NCBI GenBank assembly: GCA_018812625.1
Contig: JAHJDH010000010.1
Coordinates: 918-64,917, forward strand
Origin: Candidatus Micrarchaeota archaeon
Lineage (GTDB): Archaea; Micrarchaeota; Micrarchaeia; Anstonellales; Bilamarchaeaceae
Length of the DNA stretch: 64,000 bases
Reading direction: 5' to 3'
Shown here: positions 9,721-33,946 of the stretch, in pieces
Layout of the letters: every line of letters starts with the position of its first letter
Numbering within the stretch: position 1 is the stretch's first letter
The notes under the pieces: generated by a model
What the model was told of the DNA's origin: nothing
The model's database searches: none
What the model saw: only the letters and a program-made list of their open reading frames with translations
Position numbers and translations under genes: made by a program

Positions 9721-10401
9721 CTATTTCTTTTGCATAAACGATAGAAGTCTCTGTGCAAGATTAGTTGCAGGCATTGTTTGAAGCCAGACCTTACCAGGTC
9801 CTTTCATAACTGCAAGAAACATTCCTTCTCCGCCGAACATTATATTGCGAACTCCCTTTACCATAGTAACATCATAATCAACAGTAGGCTCAAACATAGC
9901 AAGAGAACCAGTATCAACTTTCAGGATTTCGCCCTCTTTAAGATCAATTTCAGAAACTTCACCATCAATTTCTACAAATGCCATTCCTGACCCAGTTAAT
10001 TTTTGCAAACTGAATCCTTCTCCTCCAAAGAAACCAACTGTCAGTTTTTTCTTAAAAACAGTTTTAACAGCAACTTCTGTTTGTGCTGCTAAAAAAGAAT
10101 CTTTTTGGCAGATTATTGGCTTTTCTGGAGTGATTTTAATAGGAAGTATCTTACCTGGAAAGGATGGAGAAAAAGTAACTGTTCCAGGATCTTCCCCAGT
10201 TACTGAAAATCTTACAGTGAATAGGGATTCTCCGGAAAACACCCTGCCTAGTCCACCGCCAATTCCGCCGTGGATGGATGAATGCATATCAACATTGCCA
10301 GTCATCCAGGACATTGCACCAGACTCGGCATATACTTCTTCTCCCTCATTTAATTGAACTGTTAAAACCTGCATTACAGTGCCTTCGATTTTGTATTTCA
10401 T
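9721..10401 (-). CDS. AIM24/DUF124 (TIGR00266) family protein
   Basis: MKYKIEG..VL.V.L..GE.VYAESGAM.WM N-terminus and a repetitive beta-rich body are typical of the family. The ATG at 10401 is preferred over the GTG at 10416. Confidence 0.75.
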   Translation of the reverse strand: MKYKIEGTVMQVLTVQLNEGEEVYAESGAMSWMTGNVDMHSSIHGGIGGGLGRVFSGESLFTVRFSVTGEDPGTVTFSPSFPGKILPIKITPEKPIICQKDSFLAAQTEVAVKTVFKKKLTVGFFGGEGFSLQKLTGSGMAFVEIDGEVSEIDLKEGEILKVDTGSLAMFEPTVDYDVTMVKGVRNIMFGGEGMFLAVMKGPGKVWLQTMPATNLAQRLLSFMQKK

Positions 10402-23609: not shown

Positions 23610-24125
23610 ATGCTTATAATCATATGCGGACTTCCAGGAAGTGGAAAAAGTTCGCTCTCAAGAAGGCTAAAAAGAATATTGCCTGCGATACACTTGAATA
23701 CTGATAAGGTAAGAAAAGAGGTGTTCCCTAATCCAAAATACACTGAACAAGAGAAGAAAATGGTTTATGATGAGATTGTAAATCAAACCGAAAAGCAGCT
23801 TTTGAAAAAAAGAAATGTTATCGTAGATGCTACTTTCTACAGCAAAAAATACAGGCAACGAGTAATCAATGTTGCAAGGGATACCAAGACAAAATACTAC
23901 GTGATAAAATGCATACTCTCAGAGGAAATGATAAAGAAAAGACTTGAGATGAGAGGCAAAAGAGGAACAGGGGTTAGTGATGCTGATTATGAGATATATT
24001 TGAAAGTAAAGGAAAAGTTCGAGCCCATTGAAGAGAAACATCTGGAAGTTGACTGCTCTTTTGAAGGAGAGGAACAAGTAAAAAAAGCAATGGATTACTT
24101 AGGTGTCAAACATGGAAAAAGATAA
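23610..24125 (+). CDS. P-loop kinase (AAA_33-like)
   Basis: 171 aa with Walker A GLPGSGKSS at residues 7-15 and a small kinase-sized fold. Confidence 0.7.
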   Translation: MLIIICGLPGSGKSSLSRRLKRILPAIHLNTDKVRKEVFPNPKYTEQEKKMVYDEIVNQTEKQLLKKRNVIVDATFYSKKYRQRVINVARDTKTKYYVIKCILSEEMIKKRLEMRGKRGTGVSDADYEIYLKVKEKFEPIEEKHLEVDCSFEGEEQVKKAMDYLGVKHGKR

Positions 24126-25077
24126 GATAATAGAGCTTACAAAAAAAGGGTTTGAACTGATAGAAACTCATATCTCCTGGGTGCTGCTTTCTGACGAATT
24201 TGCATACAAGATAAAAAAACCAGTAAAATTCTCATTTCTGGACTTTTCTACCATTGAGAAAAGAAAAACGCTCTGCGACGAGGAAGTAAGGCTAAACAAA
24301 AGACTGTCTCCAGACATATACATTGAGGTTGTTTCAGTTAATGATCTTGATGGAATATTAGAGTTCAATGGAAATGGGGATGTTATTGATTACGCAGTGA
24401 AAATGAAAAAACTGAACCAGGAAAACAGGATGGACATGCTGCTCAAGGATGATAAAATAGGCCAAGAGCATGTGAAAGAGATTGCCGGGATAGTTGCAGA
24501 TTTCCACAAGAATATTGATGTAATCAGAGAGACTGGATATGGAAGTGCAAAGACAGTAAAAAAACAGATCGATGATCTTGGAAATTTCAGGGGGGTAATT
24601 GAAAACGCATGCGGACTTGGAAAAACAGTTGATTTTATTTTGGAAAAATCAGATGAGTTTATTGGCAAACATAGAAGAGAGTTTGAAAAAAGACATGACA
24701 GTGGCAAGGTACGAGATTGTCATGGAGATTTGCACTCTGCAAACATCTTCATAGGGGAAAAGATAACTATTTTTGATTGTATTGAGTTTAGCAAAGATTT
24801 TAGGTTCATAGACACTGCAAGCGAAATAGCATTTATGGCAATGGATCTTGATGCATTTGGAAAAGAAAAGCTTGCAGATCTGTTTGTTGAGGGGTATATT
24901 GCAAAAAGTCAGGATGAAGACCTTCGATCAGTGATCCAAATTTACAAATGCTACAGGGCAAATGTCAGAGCAAAAATTGCTGCAATTGAATACTCCCAGA
25001 ATCCAGAAGAAGAACCAAAAGAAAGAATTAGAAAATATATTGAACTGGCTGAAAAATATGCCAAAATGCTCAATTAG
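24112..25077 (+). CDS. Aminoglycoside-phosphotransferase/protein-kinase-like fold protein
   Basis: The catalytic-loop-like DCHGDLHSANIF and IFDCIEF (DFG-like) motifs. Its start overlaps the 3' end of the P-loop kinase gene. Confidence 0.7.
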   Translation: MEKDKIIELTKKGFELIETHISWVLLSDEFAYKIKKPVKFSFLDFSTIEKRKTLCDEEVRLNKRLSPDIYIEVVSVNDLDGILEFNGNGDVIDYAVKMKKLNQENRMDMLLKDDKIGQEHVKEIAGIVADFHKNIDVIRETGYGSAKTVKKQIDDLGNFRGVIENACGLGKTVDFILEKSDEFIGKHRREFEKRHDSGKVRDCHGDLHSANIFIGEKITIFDCIEFSKDFRFIDTASEIAFMAMDLDAFGKEKLADLFVEGYIAKSQDEDLRSVIQIYKCYRANVRAKIAAIEYSQNPEEEPKERIRKYIELAEKYAKMLN

Positions 25078-26627: not shown

Positions 26628-26771
26628 GAGATTATCCCTACAATAAAGTGTCCAAAGGAAGTAAGCTCCAACGGACTTTTGAGCATTAAATCTTCTGAGT
26701 GAAAACTCAAAAAATTCAAGAACCAGTTAACAATATTGTTTGAATGTTGCTTAAAAGGATTTCCATTTTGC

Positions 26772-27110
26772 CTACCTAAAGAGAATAATATCAACTACTC
26801 TTTGTGCTGCATCAATCATATCAAACATCCACACCCTAAGCTCGTCCTGATCAAAATAAACTGGCAATACAATAAGAGGGAATTTCCCGGGTTTGATCTC
26901 AGAGTTTGGAATAATAGAGGCATTGACAAGAACCTGTTCAATATAAGGATTTCCGGTAACTAAAACCATCTCTTGCGGAAAGCCAGCATCCACCATAAGA
27001 TGCCAGGCAGTCCTATCAGGTATTGTAATGAAATCAGGAAGATGTGTAATGTGATCATCAGGAAAAACAATGCTGCCATCTGGTTGAAGATTGCTAAACG
27101 GACCTATCAC
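26772..27110 (-). pseudogene. Internal fragment of an unidentified gene (possibly GT-B glycosyltransferase/epimerase-like)
   Basis: 112-aa ORF with no family-like N- or C-terminus. The ..GFP.E.VLVTGNPYIE.. pattern followed by FPLIVL resembles an inter-domain region of GT-B enzymes. It abuts the HsdS remnant head-to-head. Confidence 0.3.
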
Positions 27111-27734
27111 ATCCCACTAATTGATGCAATAATCGATCAGCTTGAATTGAGTAGATTGGAGCTCGTACCAGTAAGTGACGAAAGAGTGAGTAATCAAGTG
27201 ATATTGCCTGGCAGATTCAAACGCATCTATGTTACTGATGCGGACGGAATTCTTTTTTTAGGCGGAAAAAACATTCAACAATTCGATCCTCCTGACCCAA
27301 AATATTTATCTAAAAAAGGACATAAAGAAAGGATTACAAGGGAACTAACAATCCATCAAAACATGATTCTAATTACATGTAGTGGTACTGTCGGAAGAGT
27401 TGTCCTTGCACCAGAACATTTTGAAGGAATCGCTACCAGCCAACACATAATTCGTATTGTTCCAAGTGAACAAATAAATCCTGGGTATCTGTATGCTTTC
27501 TTAGCAAGCGACTATGGTTACCAGTTAATTATACGAAACAAGTATGGTTCGGTTGTTGATGAAATTGACGATCATCAGGTTAGTACAATACCAATCCCAT
27601 TGCCAGACAAAGAAACAATGGATAAAATTGGAAATCTCGTGCTTGAAGCAAATGATAAACTCACTCAAGCATATTATTTAGAAAAAGAAGCAATCTCTCA
27701 AGTTGAAAAATTGATTATTGATAATCAAAAATAG
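27111..27734 (+). pseudogene. hsdS: Orphan type I R-M specificity (HsdS) remnant: one target-recognition domain plus a conserved C-terminal helix
   Basis: GILFLGGKNIQ, ILITCSGTVGRV, SQHIIRIVP....NPGYLYAFL.S and a C-terminal coiled helix (ETMDKIGNLVLEANDKLTQAYYLEKEAI) match the methylase_S TRD-CR layout. The TRD has no ATG. The upstream part of the ORF is antisense to the neighbouring fragment. No hsdM or hsdR nearby. Confidence 0.6.
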
Positions 27735-27768
27735 GCATCCATGAGTGGATATATCAAGAGAACTAATC

Positions 27769-28257
27769 TTACAGTTGGAATAAGTCTGCTTTCATTAATC
27801 TCTCATATGCAACTTTTACTTCCTCTTTCGTATACTTGGATTTTAGGCTGCATATCTTATTTGAGACGGCTTCTACATCTTCCTTTAATTCTGGGTGTTT
27901 CTTAATTTGATATAAAATAGAGGCTAAAAGTTCAAGTTCATCTGGTGTGAATTTTGTGTCTCCTAAAAATTCCTTAAGTTGTTGTATTGGCTCAGCACGT
28001 AAATCTACCTTTTCGAACACTTCGTCTGAATAATAATCATTTGCTAATCCTGGGGAGTACGGGCCATTAAAATACCAGTTAAATGAATATTCTTTTGACC
28101 ACTGGGGGGCATTTTTCATACGTTGAAATAAATAAACTAACTTCTGGAGTATGATACGATCATTCTTAGTTCCATGAGATGGCGTATCTTCTAGAATTTC
28201 AGCAAGAGCAGATAAAACCTCATTTTTGCCCATATGTATCCGTATTTCTTTAAGCAC
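27769..28257 (-). CDS. Panacea/DUF4065 (SocA/GepA-like) domain protein, putative antitoxin
   Basis: 162 aa. ILQKLVYLFQ followed by W.FNGPYSPGL..DYY matches the kLqKLlY..q ... W.yGPv motifs of DUF4065. Last gene of the tight three-gene cassette. Confidence 0.55.
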   Translation of the reverse strand: MLKEIRIHMGKNEVLSALAEILEDTPSHGTKNDRIILQKLVYLFQRMKNAPQWSKEYSFNWYFNGPYSPGLANDYYSDEVFEKVDLRAEPIQQLKEFLGDTKFTPDELELLASILYQIKKHPELKEDVEAVSNKICSLKSKYTKEEVKVAYERLMKADLFQL

Positions 28258-28274
28258 ACGTACTATTTATTAAT

Positions 28275-28973
28275 TCAGGTATTTATCTCCTCCTCTAATT
28301 TAGACACTATCTCACCTATCTTGTCTCTGATTTTATTATTCCGGTTCCCCGAAGTGTCCCTCAGGAGTGCTAATAGCTCGTTAATCTCGATAATAAATGG
28401 GTCGTCCCTCATTTCAAAGTTGGCTGCAATGTCTAGGAATTGCTCCCTGAGATCATCCAATCCCTTTACTGGATTCTCATCTGCAGATTCATTCAGTTTT
28501 CCTAGGGTATTCTGGAGTTTGCATAATAATGCTCTGCGACGACGTTTTTCCTGAGCATCAAATAGTCTTCGAGCACCATCAAGTTGCCAGGCAGTTTCCT
28601 TGATTTCATTTTCCAACATCAGGTGCGGGGGGGTTCTAAAGTCGCTTTCTTCGAAGTTACACGCCTCTAATGATACCGATATCTCGGTTTTTTCCTCAGC
28701 TTTTAGGTAATCATATCCCTTTGAATGAATTTTACGCTCTATTCCAGTTCTTATGGTGTCAGCTACACTGGGTTCCAAGTCCTCAAATATGAACTCAACT
28801 CTGGGTCGGTTACGTCCATAAAGATTAGACACATAACCGCGGACTTTGAATTTTGATGCTACCCCAACAATCAACCGGCGCATTCCTACTCCAAAAATGA
28901 TATTCATGAGATTGGGGTCATTGTCTCTTGTCCTTACAGTTATTCGTTTAATTTTTACTGGCACTAGCTTCAT
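28275..28973 (-). CDS. Hypothetical protein: N-terminal acylphosphatase-like ferredoxin fold plus C-terminal coiled coil
   Basis: 232 aa. FGVGMRR and RGYVSN..(7)..VEFIFE weakly resemble the two acylphosphatase signatures. The C-terminal approximately 110 aa are helical and charged (EKRRRRALLCKLQNTLGKL..). Confidence 0.45.
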   Translation of the reverse strand: MKLVPVKIKRITVRTRDNDPNLMNIIFGVGMRRLIVGVASKFKVRGYVSNLYGRNRPRVEFIFEDLEPSVADTIRTGIERKIHSKGYDYLKAEEKTEISVSLEACNFEESDFRTPPHLMLENEIKETAWQLDGARRLFDAQEKRRRRALLCKLQNTLGKLNESADENPVKGLDDLREQFLDIAANFEMRDDPFIIEINELLALLRDTSGNRNNKIRDKIGEIVSKLEEEINT

Positions 28974-28986
28974 TTTACCTACCCCA

Positions 28987-29217
28987 CTAGTGTCCCTTAT
29001 TGTTTTCTCTTAGGCCAGTTTCTATTGCATCGACGAACATCCGTTCTAAAACCCTTTCAGCTCTCACTAGTTGAAGAGTGCCTGTCTTCTCGTTATAGAC
29101 CCAGAATGCGTCCTCCTTATGGCTCCAGCCCTTCTTTTTAAGTTCGAGTATGAGCTCTTTGGGCAGTGAAACTGCTTGGAGTTTGTCCATGTAAACTGTG
29201 GCTGTCTTGATCATCAT
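28987..29217 (-). CDS. Small AbrB/MazE/SpoVT-like DNA-binding protein (putative antitoxin or regulator)
   Basis: 76 aa. ..LQAVSLPKELILELKKKGW...DAFWVY....GTLQLVR resembles a swapped-hairpin beta-barrel antitoxin N-domain. First gene of the cassette. Confidence 0.45.
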   Translation of the reverse strand: MMIKTATVYMDKLQAVSLPKELILELKKKGWSHKEDAFWVYNEKTGTLQLVRAERVLERMFVDAIETGLRENNKGH

Positions 29218-29343
29218 GGAGGTACTATGAACTCACTAGTTTTTATGTGTTTCTAATTTTTCCATGGATTTCCATATACGAGATATTTTTTGTGCAGGAT
29301 TACCTCAGGTTAGGATTTTTGTGCAAAGCCTAATGAAAAAGCA

Positions 29344-30078
29344 TCAAGATCCGAAAACTTTAAGCACCCACATGAATAAAATTCCTGCAAAGAGTATAGT
29401 AAGGTTCTTGATCTTATCCCATCCTTCGGATTTGTGCATTTCAGGAATAAGATCTGCTGCTGCAATGTAAATGAAATTTCCAGCTGCAAATGGAACCAAA
29501 TATAGGGCAATGCCATCAACCATTCCAGAGAGGATATATCCAACAAATGCTCCGCCAATTATTGTAGACTGTGAGATAAAACTATAGGTTATTGCCTTGT
29601 TGCGGGAAAGACCTCCTTTTATCAAAGTTCCAAAAATACCCAGCTGCTGCGGAAGCTCATGGGCAACTATTGCAACCAATGTCGCAATCCCAAGAGGAAT
29701 GCTGACTAGGAAACTTGCTGCTAGGATTAATCCTCCAAGGAAATTGTGAACACCGTCTCCAATCAATACCATATATGAGAATGGATGAATATCGCATTCT
29801 TTGCAATGATGCCAGTGCACATAGGTTTCGAGGAATATGAAAAGAACAAAGCCAGCAAGAGTAAAGAGAAGAACAGATTCAGGATTAAATGATTCAAGCG
29901 ATTCTGGAAGAAGATGGAGAAATGCTCCGCCAAGAAGGCTTCCTGCTGCAAATGCCATTAGGATATGCGAAAGTTTTTCCATATTAGCTTTGCTTATCCA
30001 AAGCGAGAAAACTCCGATAAAGCCAAGCAACGCATCAATGATTGCCGCACCAATAATCCAGAAAAACTCATCTGCCAT
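29344..30078 (-). CDS. zupT: ZIP-family divalent metal transporter (ZupT-like)
   Basis: Polytopic membrane protein with HNFLGGL and VAHELPQQLG motifs characteristic of ZIP/ZupT. Confidence 0.85.
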   Translation of the reverse strand: MADEFFWIIGAAIIDALLGFIGVFSLWISKANMEKLSHILMAFAAGSLLGGAFLHLLPESLESFNPESVLLFTLAGFVLFIFLETYVHWHHCKECDIHPFSYMVLIGDGVHNFLGGLILAASFLVSIPLGIATLVAIVAHELPQQLGIFGTLIKGGLSRNKAITYSFISQSTIIGGAFVGYILSGMVDGIALYLVPFAAGNFIYIAAADLIPEMHKSEGWDKIKNLTILFAGILFMWVLKVFGS

Positions 30079-33707: not shown

Positions 33708-33946
33708 CTTTTCCAACTGACTCGAAATAAATTCAAGCAAAGGCTCTTATTTTTTACATCTAAAGGCGCCATGATAGGCCTTGGTCTTTTTCTCAGAAAA
33801 GTCATTATATTTGTGTTAGAAAATGGGTTTTCAGATATATTTATAAATAGTTTCAGTCATATATACTATTACACGCTTTTTACAACAAAATACTAAGCTT
33901 TATATATGATAATTGAGAGATTTAGTATACAAATTGAGATGAGATT

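What the first reader, a model, noticed from the sequence alone, without database searches (positions are those of the whole stretch)
27769..29325. Tight three-gene cassette (AbrB-like / acylphosphatase-fold plus coiled coil / Panacea-like): candidate undescribed toxin-antitoxin or defence module
**Seen in the sequence**
- Three minus-strand ORFs (76, 232 and 162 aa) are separated by only 13 and 17 nt.
- They sit in a roughly 2.6 kb islet between two housekeeping units (purH and the ZIP/feoB metal operon), next to a decayed R-M specificity gene.
- A 10-bp direct repeat TTTTTGTGCA occurs twice upstream (29287-29296 and 29316-29325), along with an ACCT-C-AGGT palindrome.

**Family-level reading**
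- The last protein carries ILQKLVYLFQ...WYFNGPYSPGL, which resembles DUF4065/Panacea. That domain is reported as a promiscuous antitoxin paired with many unrelated toxins.
- The first protein looks like an AbrB/MazE-type swapped-hairpin DNA binder.

**Inference**
- The middle protein has an acylphosphatase-like betaalphabeta N-domain (FGVGMRR, RGYVSN) and a long charged coiled coil, and matches no toxin family I know.
- It would therefore be the effector of a three-component system.
Basis: partly seen in the sequence, partly recalled or inferred. Interest (0 to 1): 0.72.

Follow-up and report, generated by a model that had tools for sequence, protein, structure and literature searches.

The report
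Candidate toxin-antitoxin cassette in accessory islet
A 2.6-kb strain-specific insertion in a tiny archaeon (Micrarchaeota) carries an intact three-gene operon whose last gene resembles a known toxin-neutralising domain and whose middle gene is a near-orphan acylphosphatase-like protein, making it a plausible but untested new toxin-antitoxin pair.

Summary
Three minus-strand genes (76, 232 and 162/154 aa; gaps 13 and 17/41 nt) lie in a 2,586-bp insertion (26769-29354). The insertion is absent from a sister genome whose flanks are about 95% identical; there ZIP and purH are 153 nt apart.

- g3 has no Pfam DUF4065 hit. Both of its halves match the C-terminal toxin-binding domain of DarG collinearly (PADLOC E=2.5e-7; none of 8 shuffled or reversed controls hit). 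It also matches a Panacea profile I built (empirical P about 4e-4). It is a macrodomain-less DarG-CTD/Panacea-type protein.
- g2 belongs to a two-member family among about 15 billion proteins. Its N-domain is acylphosphatase-like by fold (Foldseek top hits) and by sequence (0 of 5,000 shuffles; hhalign P=2e-4), and it keeps the catalytic Arg and Asn. It matches no toxin family.
- g1 as AbrB-like is unproven (no Pfam hit; weak profile signal).
- The only g2 relative sits in an AT-rich patch of a GC-rich genome, has no g1 upstream, and its contig ends just after the gene. Pair conservation therefore cannot be shown.

Best reading: a PanAT-like type II toxin-antitoxin or defence module with a novel candidate toxin (confidence about 0.45). 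Toxicity is untested.

The parts
26769..29354 (.). Strain-specific accessory insertion (2,586 bp) between the ZIP stop codon and the purH promoter
   Evidence: blastn against sister MAG L025: L025 5484-9839 = window 33710-29355, and L025 9861-21551 = window 26768-15080. tblastn finds no g1, g2, g3 or hsdS in L025 or in 14 other Micrarchaeota loci. No target-site duplication or att repeat; GC 0.386 against 0.389 for the window. Three further assemblies hold copies 99.97-100% identical.
29218..29343 (-). Upstream control region of the operon. On the coding strand it holds two TGCACAAAAA repeats (+ strand 29287-29296 and 29316-29325) flanking a short palindrome (29302-29310), then A/T-rich TATA-like stretches.
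   Evidence: Sequence. The repeat reaches P about 0.011 in region shuffles. The operator and promoter roles are inferred.
28987..29217 (-). g1: 76-aa orphan protein, a possible small DNA-binding regulator (AbrB/SpoVT-like topology suggested, not established)
   Evidence: No homologue other than itself. No Pfam, NCBIfam or PHROGs hit. AbrB profile 0.9-1.6 bits, reached by 10-12 of 5,000 shuffles, with only 'SLPKELILEL' aligned. Coding signal +0.14 bit/codon.
28275..28973 (-). g2: 232-aa candidate effector or toxin. Acylphosphatase-like N-domain (aa ~8-113, nt 28635-28952) with R32 and N50; conserved Arg-rich helix (aa ~124-150); variable helical tail to aa 232.
   Evidence: Only one relative, P0002 (42-44% identity), in both the indexed and the exhaustive searches. 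AF2 pLDDT 73. Foldseek top hits are acylphosphatases: 3br8 E=0.012, TM 0.60. AcP profile 11.5 bits with 0 of 5,000 shuffles; hhalign P=2e-4. No PADLOC, Pfam or PHROGs toxin hit.
27769..28257 (-). g3: 162-aa (154 aa from the ATG at 28233) macrodomain-less DarG-C-terminal-domain/Panacea-like protein, the candidate antitoxin
   Evidence: PADLOC DarG E=2.5e-7; NCBIfam DarG E=4.6e-5. The halves hit separately and collinearly, and none of 8 controls hit. Own Panacea profile 12.1 bits, reached by 2 of 5,000 shuffles; hhalign P=0.0012-0.006. No PF13274 hit.
27727..27731 (-). T5 tract about 38 nt downstream of the g3 stop codon: a candidate archaeal oligo-T terminator in the 34-nt convergent spacer
   Evidence: Sequence only. 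Inferred.
27180..27734 (+). 5'-truncated half S-subunit (Type I R-M / MADS MAD5-like) remnant, convergent with g3. The nominal ORF is 26973-27734.
   Evidence: PF01420 E=3e-10; NF047740 E=8e-55 but 186 bits against a 400 cutoff, covering 45-221 of 461. The 5' part of the ORF has no coding signal. No other copy in the window.
26772..27110 (-). 112-aa ORF at the purH-side edge of the island, probably a gene remnant
   Evidence: Coding signal +0.46 bit/codon. Only a weak Epimerase_2 similarity, E=0.059.

Best explanation
The region is a 2.6-kb accessory insertion in one Micrarchaeota population. It holds two decayed gene remnants and one intact, probably co-transcribed three-gene operon that most likely works like a PanAT-type (type II) toxin-antitoxin or abortive-infection module.

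Shown:
- The insertion is absent from a sister genome about 95% identical in the flanks.
- g3 is homologous over its whole length to the helical C-terminal domain of DarG. That domain inhibits DarT by direct binding, and the literature says it is homologous to Panacea/DUF4065 antitoxins.
- g2 is a near-orphan with an acylphosphatase-type N-domain that keeps the phosphate-binding Arg and the catalytic Asn.

Inferred:
- g3 binds and neutralises g2.
- Free g2 harms the cell, either by hydrolysing an essential acyl-phosphate or phosphoanhydride compound through its acylphosphatase-like site, or by binding RNA through its RRM-like fold and Arg-rich helix.
- g1 is a small DNA-binding autoregulator acting on the TGCACAAAAA repeats upstream.
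- The cassette stays intact among decaying neighbours because it is addictive or protective.
For: - Presence/absence polymorphism with exact boundaries, and identical copies in three other assemblies.
- Tight same-strand spacing of 13 and 17/41 nt, with no terminator-like site on the coding (minus) strand between the genes.
- g3: DarG profiles at E=2.5e-7 and 4.6e-5. Both halves hit collinearly and none of 8 shuffled or reversed controls hit. An independent profile of 14 real phage Panacea proteins gives 12.1 bits on LQKLVYLFQ / FNWYFNGPYSP, with empirical P about 4e-4.
- PMC13621843 states that DUF4065 proteins are homologous to the DarG C-terminal inhibitor domain. My Panacea profile's second-best PDB hit is 7yk3_B, DarG.
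- PMC8832971 reports that Panacea pairs with at least 88 unrelated toxin domains, many of them unknown, and allows three-gene architectures.
- g2: AF2 plus Foldseek give acylphosphatases as the top hits. The directed profile test gives 0 of 5,000 shuffles for g2 and for P0002, and hhalign gives P=2e-4 over 75 columns. R32 and N50 are invariant and 18 residues apart, as in acylphosphatases.
- The only g2 relative lies in a 38-43% GC patch of a 61-70% GC genome, which implies horizontal mobility.
- The neighbours inside the island are decayed while the three genes are intact and coding.
Against: - No curated family threshold is met. PF13274, PF04014 and PF00708 all fail, and the DarG scores (23-28 bits) are far below the 250-bit model cutoff.
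- g3 shows no alignable equivalent of the C-terminal Panacea columns L116, H121 and W127 of alignment A2.
- g1 and g3 have no homologues at all, and g2 has one. The conserved-neighbourhood criterion for TA prediction therefore cannot be met.
- The one g2 relative has no g1-like gene upstream, and the minus strand of the 71 nt after its stop is open, which would allow a convergent gene.
- A full-text literature search found no acylphosphatase-fold toxin.
- RRM-like folds cross-hit acylphosphatases in profile searches (PMC8195603).
- The g3 structure model was too poor to test its fold.
- DUF4065 proteins are not always antitoxins.
Confidence: 0.45

Rival explanations
1. The cassette is not a toxin-antitoxin or defence module. 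The three genes are leftover cargo of a decayed mobile element or former R-M/defence locus, with unrelated or lineage-specific functions. For example, g2 could be a regulatory, RNA-binding or phospho-metabolite enzyme, and g3 a Panacea-fold protein used for some other protein-protein interaction.
For: - The island also holds two gene remnants and no mobility genes.
- All three proteins are orphans or near-orphans, so no conserved pairing exists.
- The g2 relative appears without g1.
- No toxin family hit for g2.
- No acylphosphatase-fold toxin in the literature.
Against: - g3's only detectable relatives are toxin-binding antitoxin domains.
- The three genes are intact, tightly spaced and coding while their neighbours decayed.
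- Both g2 family members sit in horizontally acquired DNA, which is typical of selfish or defence genes.
Confidence: 0.3
2. The toxin-antitoxin pair is g1-g2: a small AbrB-type DNA-binding antitoxin upstream and the toxin 13 nt downstream, which is the canonical type II order. g3 would be an accessory third gene or a second, unrelated antitoxin.
For: - A 13-nt gap with an SD-like GGGGTAGGT before the g2 start.
- g1's size and beta-beta-alpha-beta-beta sequence pattern, with a weak in-register AbrB profile signal.
- Upstream direct repeats that could serve as an operator.
- Most fetched phage Panacea loci have the antitoxin gene first.
Against: - The AbrB assignment is not significant by any curated model.
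- The g2 relative has no g1-like ORF in its 149-nt upstream spacer, so g1 is dispensable for carrying a g2-type gene.
- g3 is the protein with real antitoxin-domain homology.
- Toxin-first order is also known, for example toxSAS-PanA in phage Lily and darT-darG (own knowledge).
Confidence: 0.12
3. g2 is an ordinary housekeeping acylphosphatase paralogue, and the cassette is a metabolic or metal-related extension of the upstream ZIP/feoB operon.
For: - Acylphosphatase-like fold and catalytic residues.
- Same strand as, and 126 nt downstream of, the ZIP gene.
Against: - Absent from the sister genome and from all other relatives.
- 232 aa with a 120-aa helical extension, against about 90 aa for acylphosphatases.
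- Below the Pfam and NCBIfam acylphosphatase cutoffs.
- Canonical ~95-aa acylphosphatases do occur in more distant Micrarchaeota loci (L024 and L073, found).
- Only two family members among about 15 billion proteins.
Confidence: 0.05
4. One or more of the ORFs (especially g1 or g3) is a chance ORF and not a gene.
For: - g1 and g3 have no homologues.
- Their coding signal is lower than in native genes.
Against: - In-frame signal is positive and both off-frames are negative for all three, whereas the antisense ORF 28234-28554 is negative in all frames.
- g3 has significant profile hits.
- Three independent gene-calling runs call all three genes.
Confidence: 0.03

Closest known systems
PanAT systems (Panacea/DUF4065 antitoxin plus diverse toxins; Kurata et al. 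2022, PMC8832971)
   Same: - A small helical protein carrying the 'L.LQKL.Y' and 'W..GP' hallmark motifs lies within 100 nt of an unrelated, unannotatable partner gene on mobile or accessory DNA.
- Three-gene variants and both gene orders are known.
- The partner toxin is often a domain never before seen as a toxin.
   Different: - g3 does not reach the PF13274 threshold and shows no alignable equivalent of the C-terminal His/Trp columns.
- It scores better against DarG-CTD models than against Panacea.
- The partner is acylphosphatase-like, which the literature searched does not report.
- The host is a DPANN archaeon.
- Conservation in two or more species, a criterion of that study, cannot be shown.
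DarTG (DarT ADP-ribosyltransferase toxin plus DarG antitoxin)
   Same: - g3 aligns collinearly with the whole DarG C-terminal domain, the part that binds and inhibits DarT.
- The gene order, candidate toxin first and DarG-like gene second, matches darT-darG.
   Different: - g3 has no macrodomain.
- g2 is not DarT: it has no DUF4433 or PADLOC DarT hit, and its fold is acylphosphatase-like rather than that of an ADP-ribosyltransferase.
Acylphosphatases (PF00708) and the acylphosphatase-like domain of HypF
   Same: - Beta-alpha-beta-beta-alpha-beta fold.
- A GVGxR phosphate-loop Arg and a GYxxN Asn with identical 18-residue spacing.
- A C-terminal 'DF' motif.
   Different: - Scores are below family cutoffs.
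- The upstream part of the phosphate loop (GxVQ) is not conserved.
- A 120-aa helical extension with a conserved Arg-rich helix is added.
- The gene is accessory and horizontally mobile, not housekeeping.
Three-gene TA operons with a dedicated regulator (paaR-paaA-parE; TAC chaperone systems), as cited in PMC8832971
   Same: A small first gene lies upstream of a two-gene pair, and repeats upstream could serve as an operator.
   Different: g1's DNA-binding fold is unproven, and g1 is absent from the only related locus.
Defence or TA genes embedded in Type I R-M / MADS loci
   Same: A MAD5/HsdS-like specificity-gene remnant lies 34 nt from the cassette, convergent with it, inside the same insertion.
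   Different: No methylase or nuclease subunit is present. The S gene is a 5'-truncated half. Whether the two arrived together is unknown.

Membership tests
Panacea / DUF4065 (PF13274 SocA_Panacea) | Match to the Pfam HMM at or above the gathering score (25.7 bits) | tested here: not met
   No hit for full-length g3 at E<=1 or for its N-half at E<=10. Positive control: PanA of phage phi52237 scores 65.8 bits.
Panacea / DUF4065 (PF13274 SocA_Panacea) | N-terminal hallmark motifs (L.LQKL.Y...; W..GPV.p) in register | tested here: met
   Own profile of 14 phage Panacea proteins: 12.1 bits over g3 11-67, reached by 2 of 5,000 shuffles. hhalign P=0.0012 and 0.0061. BLASTP to PanA aligns WYFNGPYSPGL with WRF-GPVLPGL.
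Panacea / DUF4065 (PF13274 SocA_Panacea) | C-terminal conserved columns (L116, H121, W127 of alignment A2; the 'TH..PW' motif) | tested here: not met
   The profile alignment stops at g3 residue 67. The invariant columns are listed. g3 has no Trp in the corresponding region.
Panacea / DUF4065 (PF13274 SocA_Panacea) | [quoted passage not shown] | tested here: inconclusive
   Spacing is met at 17 or 41 nt. Conservation cannot be assessed: g3 has no homologue, and the contigs of the g2 relative end 46-71 nt after the gene.
Panacea / DUF4065 (PF13274 SocA_Panacea) | Neutralises the neighbouring toxin by direct binding | not testable with these tools
   Needs co-expression and pull-down, or a multimer prediction.
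DarTG | DarG C-terminal (DarT-binding) domain | tested here: met
   PADLOC PDLC02990 E=2.5e-7 and NCBIfam NF048014 E=4.6e-5. The halves hit 167-216 and 268-327 of 329 separately, and none of 8 controls hit. Scores are far below the full-length model cutoff of 250 bits.
DarTG | DarG N-terminal macrodomain (ADP-ribosyl glycohydrolase) | tested here: not met
   g3 is 154-162 aa and matches only model positions of about 167 and above. No Macro hit in Pfam.
DarTG | DarT (DUF4433) ADP-ribosyltransferase toxin encoded upstream | tested here: not met
   g2 has no Pfam or PADLOC hit. Its AF2 model matches acylphosphatases, not ADP-ribosyltransferases.
AbrB / SpoVT / MazE swapped-hairpin (PF04014) | Match to the Pfam HMM or to a profile of validated members | tested here: inconclusive
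   No Pfam hit at E<=10. Own profile, with seeds validated at E 1e-7 to 1e-15, gives 0.9-1.6 bits at E=0.013-0.02, reached by 10-12 of 5,000 shuffles, with only residues 10-26 aligned. No structure model could be made.
Acylphosphatase (PF00708) | Match to the curated HMMs at threshold | tested here: not met
   PF00708 12.8 bits against 22.5. NCBIfam PRK14449 14.5 bits against 103.
Acylphosphatase (PF00708) | Beta-alpha-beta-beta-alpha-beta fold resembling solved acylphosphatases | tested here: met
   AF2 model pLDDT 73. Foldseek PDB ranks 1-4, 6 and 8 are acylphosphatases; best E=0.012, probability 1.00, TM(target) 0.60.
Acylphosphatase (PF00708) | Phosphate-binding Arg and catalytic Asn in the conserved motifs with canonical spacing | tested here: met
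   GVGMR(32) and GYVSN(50) align to GVGFR and GWVxN. Both are invariant in the two family members. Profile test: 0 of 5,000 shuffles for each member; hhalign P=2e-4.
Acylphosphatase (PF00708) | Acylphosphate hydrolase activity | not testable with these tools
   Needs an enzyme assay.
Type I R-M / MADS specificity subunit (the neighbouring gene) | Full-length S subunit with two target-recognition domains and partner M/R genes | tested here: not met
   Only model positions 45-221 of 461 are covered, at 186 bits against a 400 cutoff. The 5' part of the ORF is non-coding. No partner genes lie in the island and the window holds no second S-gene copy.

The most novel reading that the evidence does not exclude
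g2 would be the first acylphosphatase-fold toxin. It would poison the cell through its retained Arg/Asn site by hydrolysing an essential acyl-phosphate or phosphoanhydride metabolite, or it would use the RRM-like fold and Arg-rich helix to bind RNA. A macrodomain-less DarG-CTD/Panacea-type antitoxin would hold it in check, and a small AbrB-like protein would regulate transcription. That would make a three-component module in a genome-reduced DPANN archaeon.
Probability: 0.2. Interest if true: 0.7.

Novelty: new variant of a known kind. Interest (0 to 1): 0.45.

Why it matters
If g2 is toxic and g3 neutralises it, three things follow:
- An enzyme fold not known among toxins (acylphosphatase-like) would join the toxin-antitoxin repertoire.
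- The reach of the hyperpromiscuous Panacea/DarG-CTD neutraliser domain would extend into DPANN archaea.
- It would show that even very small, host-dependent archaeal genomes keep addictive or defensive cassettes in variable islets.

It is also a clean, cheap test case: three short genes with two obvious catalytic point mutants (R32A, N50A).

If g2 is not toxic, the finding reduces to an ordinary strain-specific islet of orphan genes.

Tried and rejected
- **Structure of g3:** the single-sequence AF2 model had pLDDT 59, and its Foldseek results were meaningless (best E=2) and were discarded.
- **g2 against viral structures (BFVD):** only low-TM, high-rmsd helical matches.
- **More homologues:** the searches were indexed searches for all three proteins, an exhaustive HMMER profile search for g2 (where the only extra hit was a coiled-coil artefact, P0005), viral contigs, JGI metagenomes, and tblastn against phages and plasmids. 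Only P0002 was found.
- **PDB sequence searches:** phmmer and hmmsearch gave nothing relevant for g2 or g3.
- **Integration signatures:** I found no target-site duplication or att repeat, no tRNA in the window, and no GC anomaly.
- **DarT identity for g2:** rejected. It has no sequence hit and the fold is wrong.
- **Scottie gp77 'MazE' as an AbrB seed:** dropped because it has no Pfam hit.
- **Organism carrying P0002:** no name is on record and no close relatives occur among the fetched loci.
- **The three extra island copies (L097-L099):** they are identical and add no comparative information.
Full report
**1. The observation**

The three minus-strand ORFs are at the stated coordinates: g1 28987-29217 (76 aa), g2 28275-28973 (232 aa) and g3 27769-28257 (162 aa from GTG). 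The gaps are 13 and 17 nt. NCBI annotation and two of three gene calls start g3 at the ATG at 28233 (154 aa), which makes the second gap 41 nt.

The source is a Candidatus Micrarchaeota MAG, locus tags KKE92_01325/01320/01315. A frame-specific codon test trained on the window's long ORFs gives positive in-frame and negative off-frame scores for all three genes (+0.14, +0.19, +0.25 bit/codon). Native neighbours score +0.40 to +0.52, and an antisense ORF is negative in every frame. The ORFs are therefore real genes with less-adapted codon usage.

Pfam confirms the flanks: purH, ZIP, PHP, FeoB and a DtxR/FeoA fusion.

They are only mildly unusual: 1.1% of dinucleotide shuffles of the 126-nt region contain a 10-nt repeat, as do 2.4% of window tiles. 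The 4-bp-arm palindrome is unremarkable.

**2. The islet is a true presence/absence polymorphism**

A purH-anchored scan of GTDB genomes returned 15 Micrarchaeota loci. In the sister MAG L025 the flanking proteins are 95-97% identical (the 324-aa protein beyond purH is 90%) and the DNA is 94-95% identical. There the ZIP stop and the purH start are 153 nt apart, and none of g1, g2, g3 or the S-subunit gene is present.

blastn places the window-specific insertion at 26769-29354 (2,586 bp), replacing 21 nt. Relatives at 69-75% identity also have ZIP or PHP directly next to purH.

The junctions show no target-site duplication or att-like repeat. There is no integrase or transposase and no tRNA, and the island's GC (0.386) equals the genome's.

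Besides the cassette, the island holds two remnants:
- A 5'-truncated half S subunit. It matches the MAD5/HsdS model at 186 bits against a 400 cutoff, covering positions 45-221 of 461, and the 5' third of its ORF is non-coding.
- A 112-aa remnant ORF at the purH-side edge.

Three further assemblies or samples carry the island at 99.97-100% identity in the same context.

**3. g3 is a macrodomain-less DarG-C-terminal-domain/Panacea-type protein**

Pfam's PF13274 gives no hit, even on the N-half at E<=10.

Other evidence supports the relationship at superfamily level:
- PADLOC's DarG model hits at E=2.5e-7 and NCBIfam's at E=4.6e-5, in the non-macro part of DarG.
- Scanned separately, the two halves of g3 hit DarG positions 167-216 and 268-327 of 329, at E about 2e-3 each. 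Seven shuffles and the reversed sequence hit nothing.
- PMC13621843 states that DUF4065 proteins are homologous to this DarG domain, which binds and inhibits DarT (PDB 7YK3).
- I fetched PanA of phage phi52237, an experimentally validated antitoxin (PMC8832971) confirmed here as PF13274 at E=8e-18, together with 13 diverse phage relatives. A profile built from them scores g3 at 12.1 bits over residues 11-67, aligning LQKLVYLFQ and FNWYFNGPYSP with the family hallmarks. The g1 and g2 controls are negative.
- Two of 5,000 shuffles reach that score, and hhalign gives P=0.0012 and 0.006.
- The same Panacea profile's second-best PDB hit is DarG 7yk3_B, on the same motif (E=0.31, weak).

g3 shows no alignable equivalent of the C-terminal Panacea His/Trp columns. 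It has no homologue in any collection searched. Its single-sequence AF2 model was unusable.

**4. g2 is a near-orphan with an acylphosphatase-type N-domain**

The word-indexed search of 5.8 billion proteins and an exhaustive HMMER profile search of 1.84 billion cluster representatives (about 15 billion proteins) find one relative, P0002 (244 aa, 42-44% identity).

Structure:
- AF2 on the two-sequence alignment gives pLDDT 73 and pTM 0.56.
- The model has a beta-alpha-beta-beta-alpha-beta domain (residues 8-103) followed by four helices (128-231), not an obvious long coiled coil.
- Foldseek against PDB ranks acylphosphatases first (3br8 E=0.012, probability 1.0, TM 0.60; also 4ojg, 1y9o, 2w4d, 9sv1). 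No toxin fold appears.
- BFVD gives nothing.

Curated models are sub-threshold: PF00708 12.8 bits, PRK14449 E=0.025.

A directed test gave a clearer answer. I built a profile from five acylphosphatases validated at E 1e-22 to 1e-30, plus two real archaeal ones found in the fetched loci.
- g2 scores 11.5 bits and P0002 scores 8.1 bits. None of 5,000 shuffles reaches either score.
- hhalign gives P=2e-4 over 75 collinear columns, from GVGxR through GYxxN to the C-terminal 'DF'.
- R32 and N50 are 18 residues apart, as in the acylphosphatase seed sequences, and are invariant in both members.

One caveat applies: RRM-like folds cross-hit acylphosphatases at profile level (PMC8195603).

The most conserved stretch of the family is IKETAWQLDGARRLF.AQE.RRR (residues 124-146). 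The last ~80 residues are the most variable.

g2 has no PADLOC, PHROGs or Pfam toxin hit. A full-text search for papers holding both 'acylphosphatase' and 'toxin-antitoxin' found 11, none with either term in its title or abstract; the one I opened mentions acylphosphatase only as a fold comparison.

**5. g1**

g1 has no homologue and no family hit. Against a profile of validated AbrB/SpoVT/MazE domains it scores 1-2 bits (E=0.013-0.02; 10-12 of 5,000 shuffles), and only 'SLPKELILEL' aligns. By eye the sequence pattern fits beta-beta-alpha-beta-beta, but the AbrB call remains a lead and is not a result.

**6. The one comparative locus**

P0002 lies in a 38-43% GC patch of a 61-70% GC genome, so g2-type genes move horizontally. 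Upstream there is only a 149-nt spacer and a divergent secreted protein, with no g1-like ORF. Both independent assemblies stop 46 and 71 nt after the gene, so whether a g3-like gene follows is unknown. The minus strand of that tail is open, so a convergent gene is possible.

**7. Interpretation**

Shown:
- an accessory insertion;
- an intact, tightly spaced operon among decayed neighbours;
- a last gene whose only relatives are toxin-binding antitoxin domains;
- a middle gene with an enzyme-like acylphosphatase domain and no known relatives.

Inferred: g2 and g3 form a PanAT-like type II pair or abortive-infection module in which g3 sequesters g2, with g1 as autoregulator. PMC8832971 documents that Panacea pairs with at least 88 unrelated toxin domains, many unrecognisable, that both gene orders occur, and that third genes are sometimes present. 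My fetched loci show both orders.

I put this reading at about 0.45. The main rival is leftover cargo with no toxin-antitoxin function (0.30). Next come a g1-g2 pair with g3 as an accessory (0.12), a housekeeping acylphosphatase (0.05) and spurious ORFs (0.03).

**8. Novelty and score**

If the reading is right, this is a new variant of a known kind: a Panacea/DarG-CTD-type neutraliser with an unprecedented acylphosphatase-fold partner, in a DPANN archaeon. The hyperpromiscuity of Panacea makes a novel partner unsurprising in principle, and nothing functional has been tested.

Noticed in passing
L025 4717-5484 (sister MAG), corresponding to window 33710-33811: The sister genome has a 767-nt segment encoding a 222-aa RelA_SpoT-domain protein (PF04607, 33 bits, above the gathering score) where the window has only about 100 nt, just upstream of the DtxR/FeoA-feoB operon. 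This is a second small accessory insertion in the same neighbourhood, possibly a toxSAS-like gene.
   Followed up: partly
window 26772-27110 (-): A 112-aa ORF at the purH-side edge of the island has native-like coding signal (+0.46 bit/codon) and a weak UDP-GlcNAc 2-epimerase-like similarity (E=0.059). It overlaps the non-coding 5' part of the hsdS ORF and is probably a gene remnant.
   Followed up: partly
L001 7860-8806: The only g2 relative lies in a 38-43% GC patch of a 61-70% GC genome. Two independent assemblies both break 46-71 nt after the gene, which suggests a strain-variable or repeated region there.
   Followed up: partly
L019, L021, L022, L023 around positions 9900-10000: The ZIP transporter gene is itself variably present. 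Several Micrarchaeota relatives have the PHP gene directly next to purH, so the junction upstream of purH has changed gene content more than once.
   Followed up: no
L005 (Cylindrospermopsis phage Cr-LKS4) 559-1017: A Panacea/DUF4065-type gene lies between two annotated CRISPR arrays in a cyanophage genome.
   Followed up: no
L011 (Paenibacillus phage Scottie) 248-1394: Three tightly packed genes are annotated 'antitoxin MazE' (gp77), DUF4065 (gp78) and DUF5406 (gp79). gp77 has no Pfam hit, so its annotation is unverified.
   Followed up: partly
window 24103-25077 (+): A 324-aa protein with no Pfam hit is conserved (56-90% identity) next to purH in all Micrarchaeota relatives examined. It contains an HGDLHSANIF motif that looks kinase-like by eye.
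   Followed up: no
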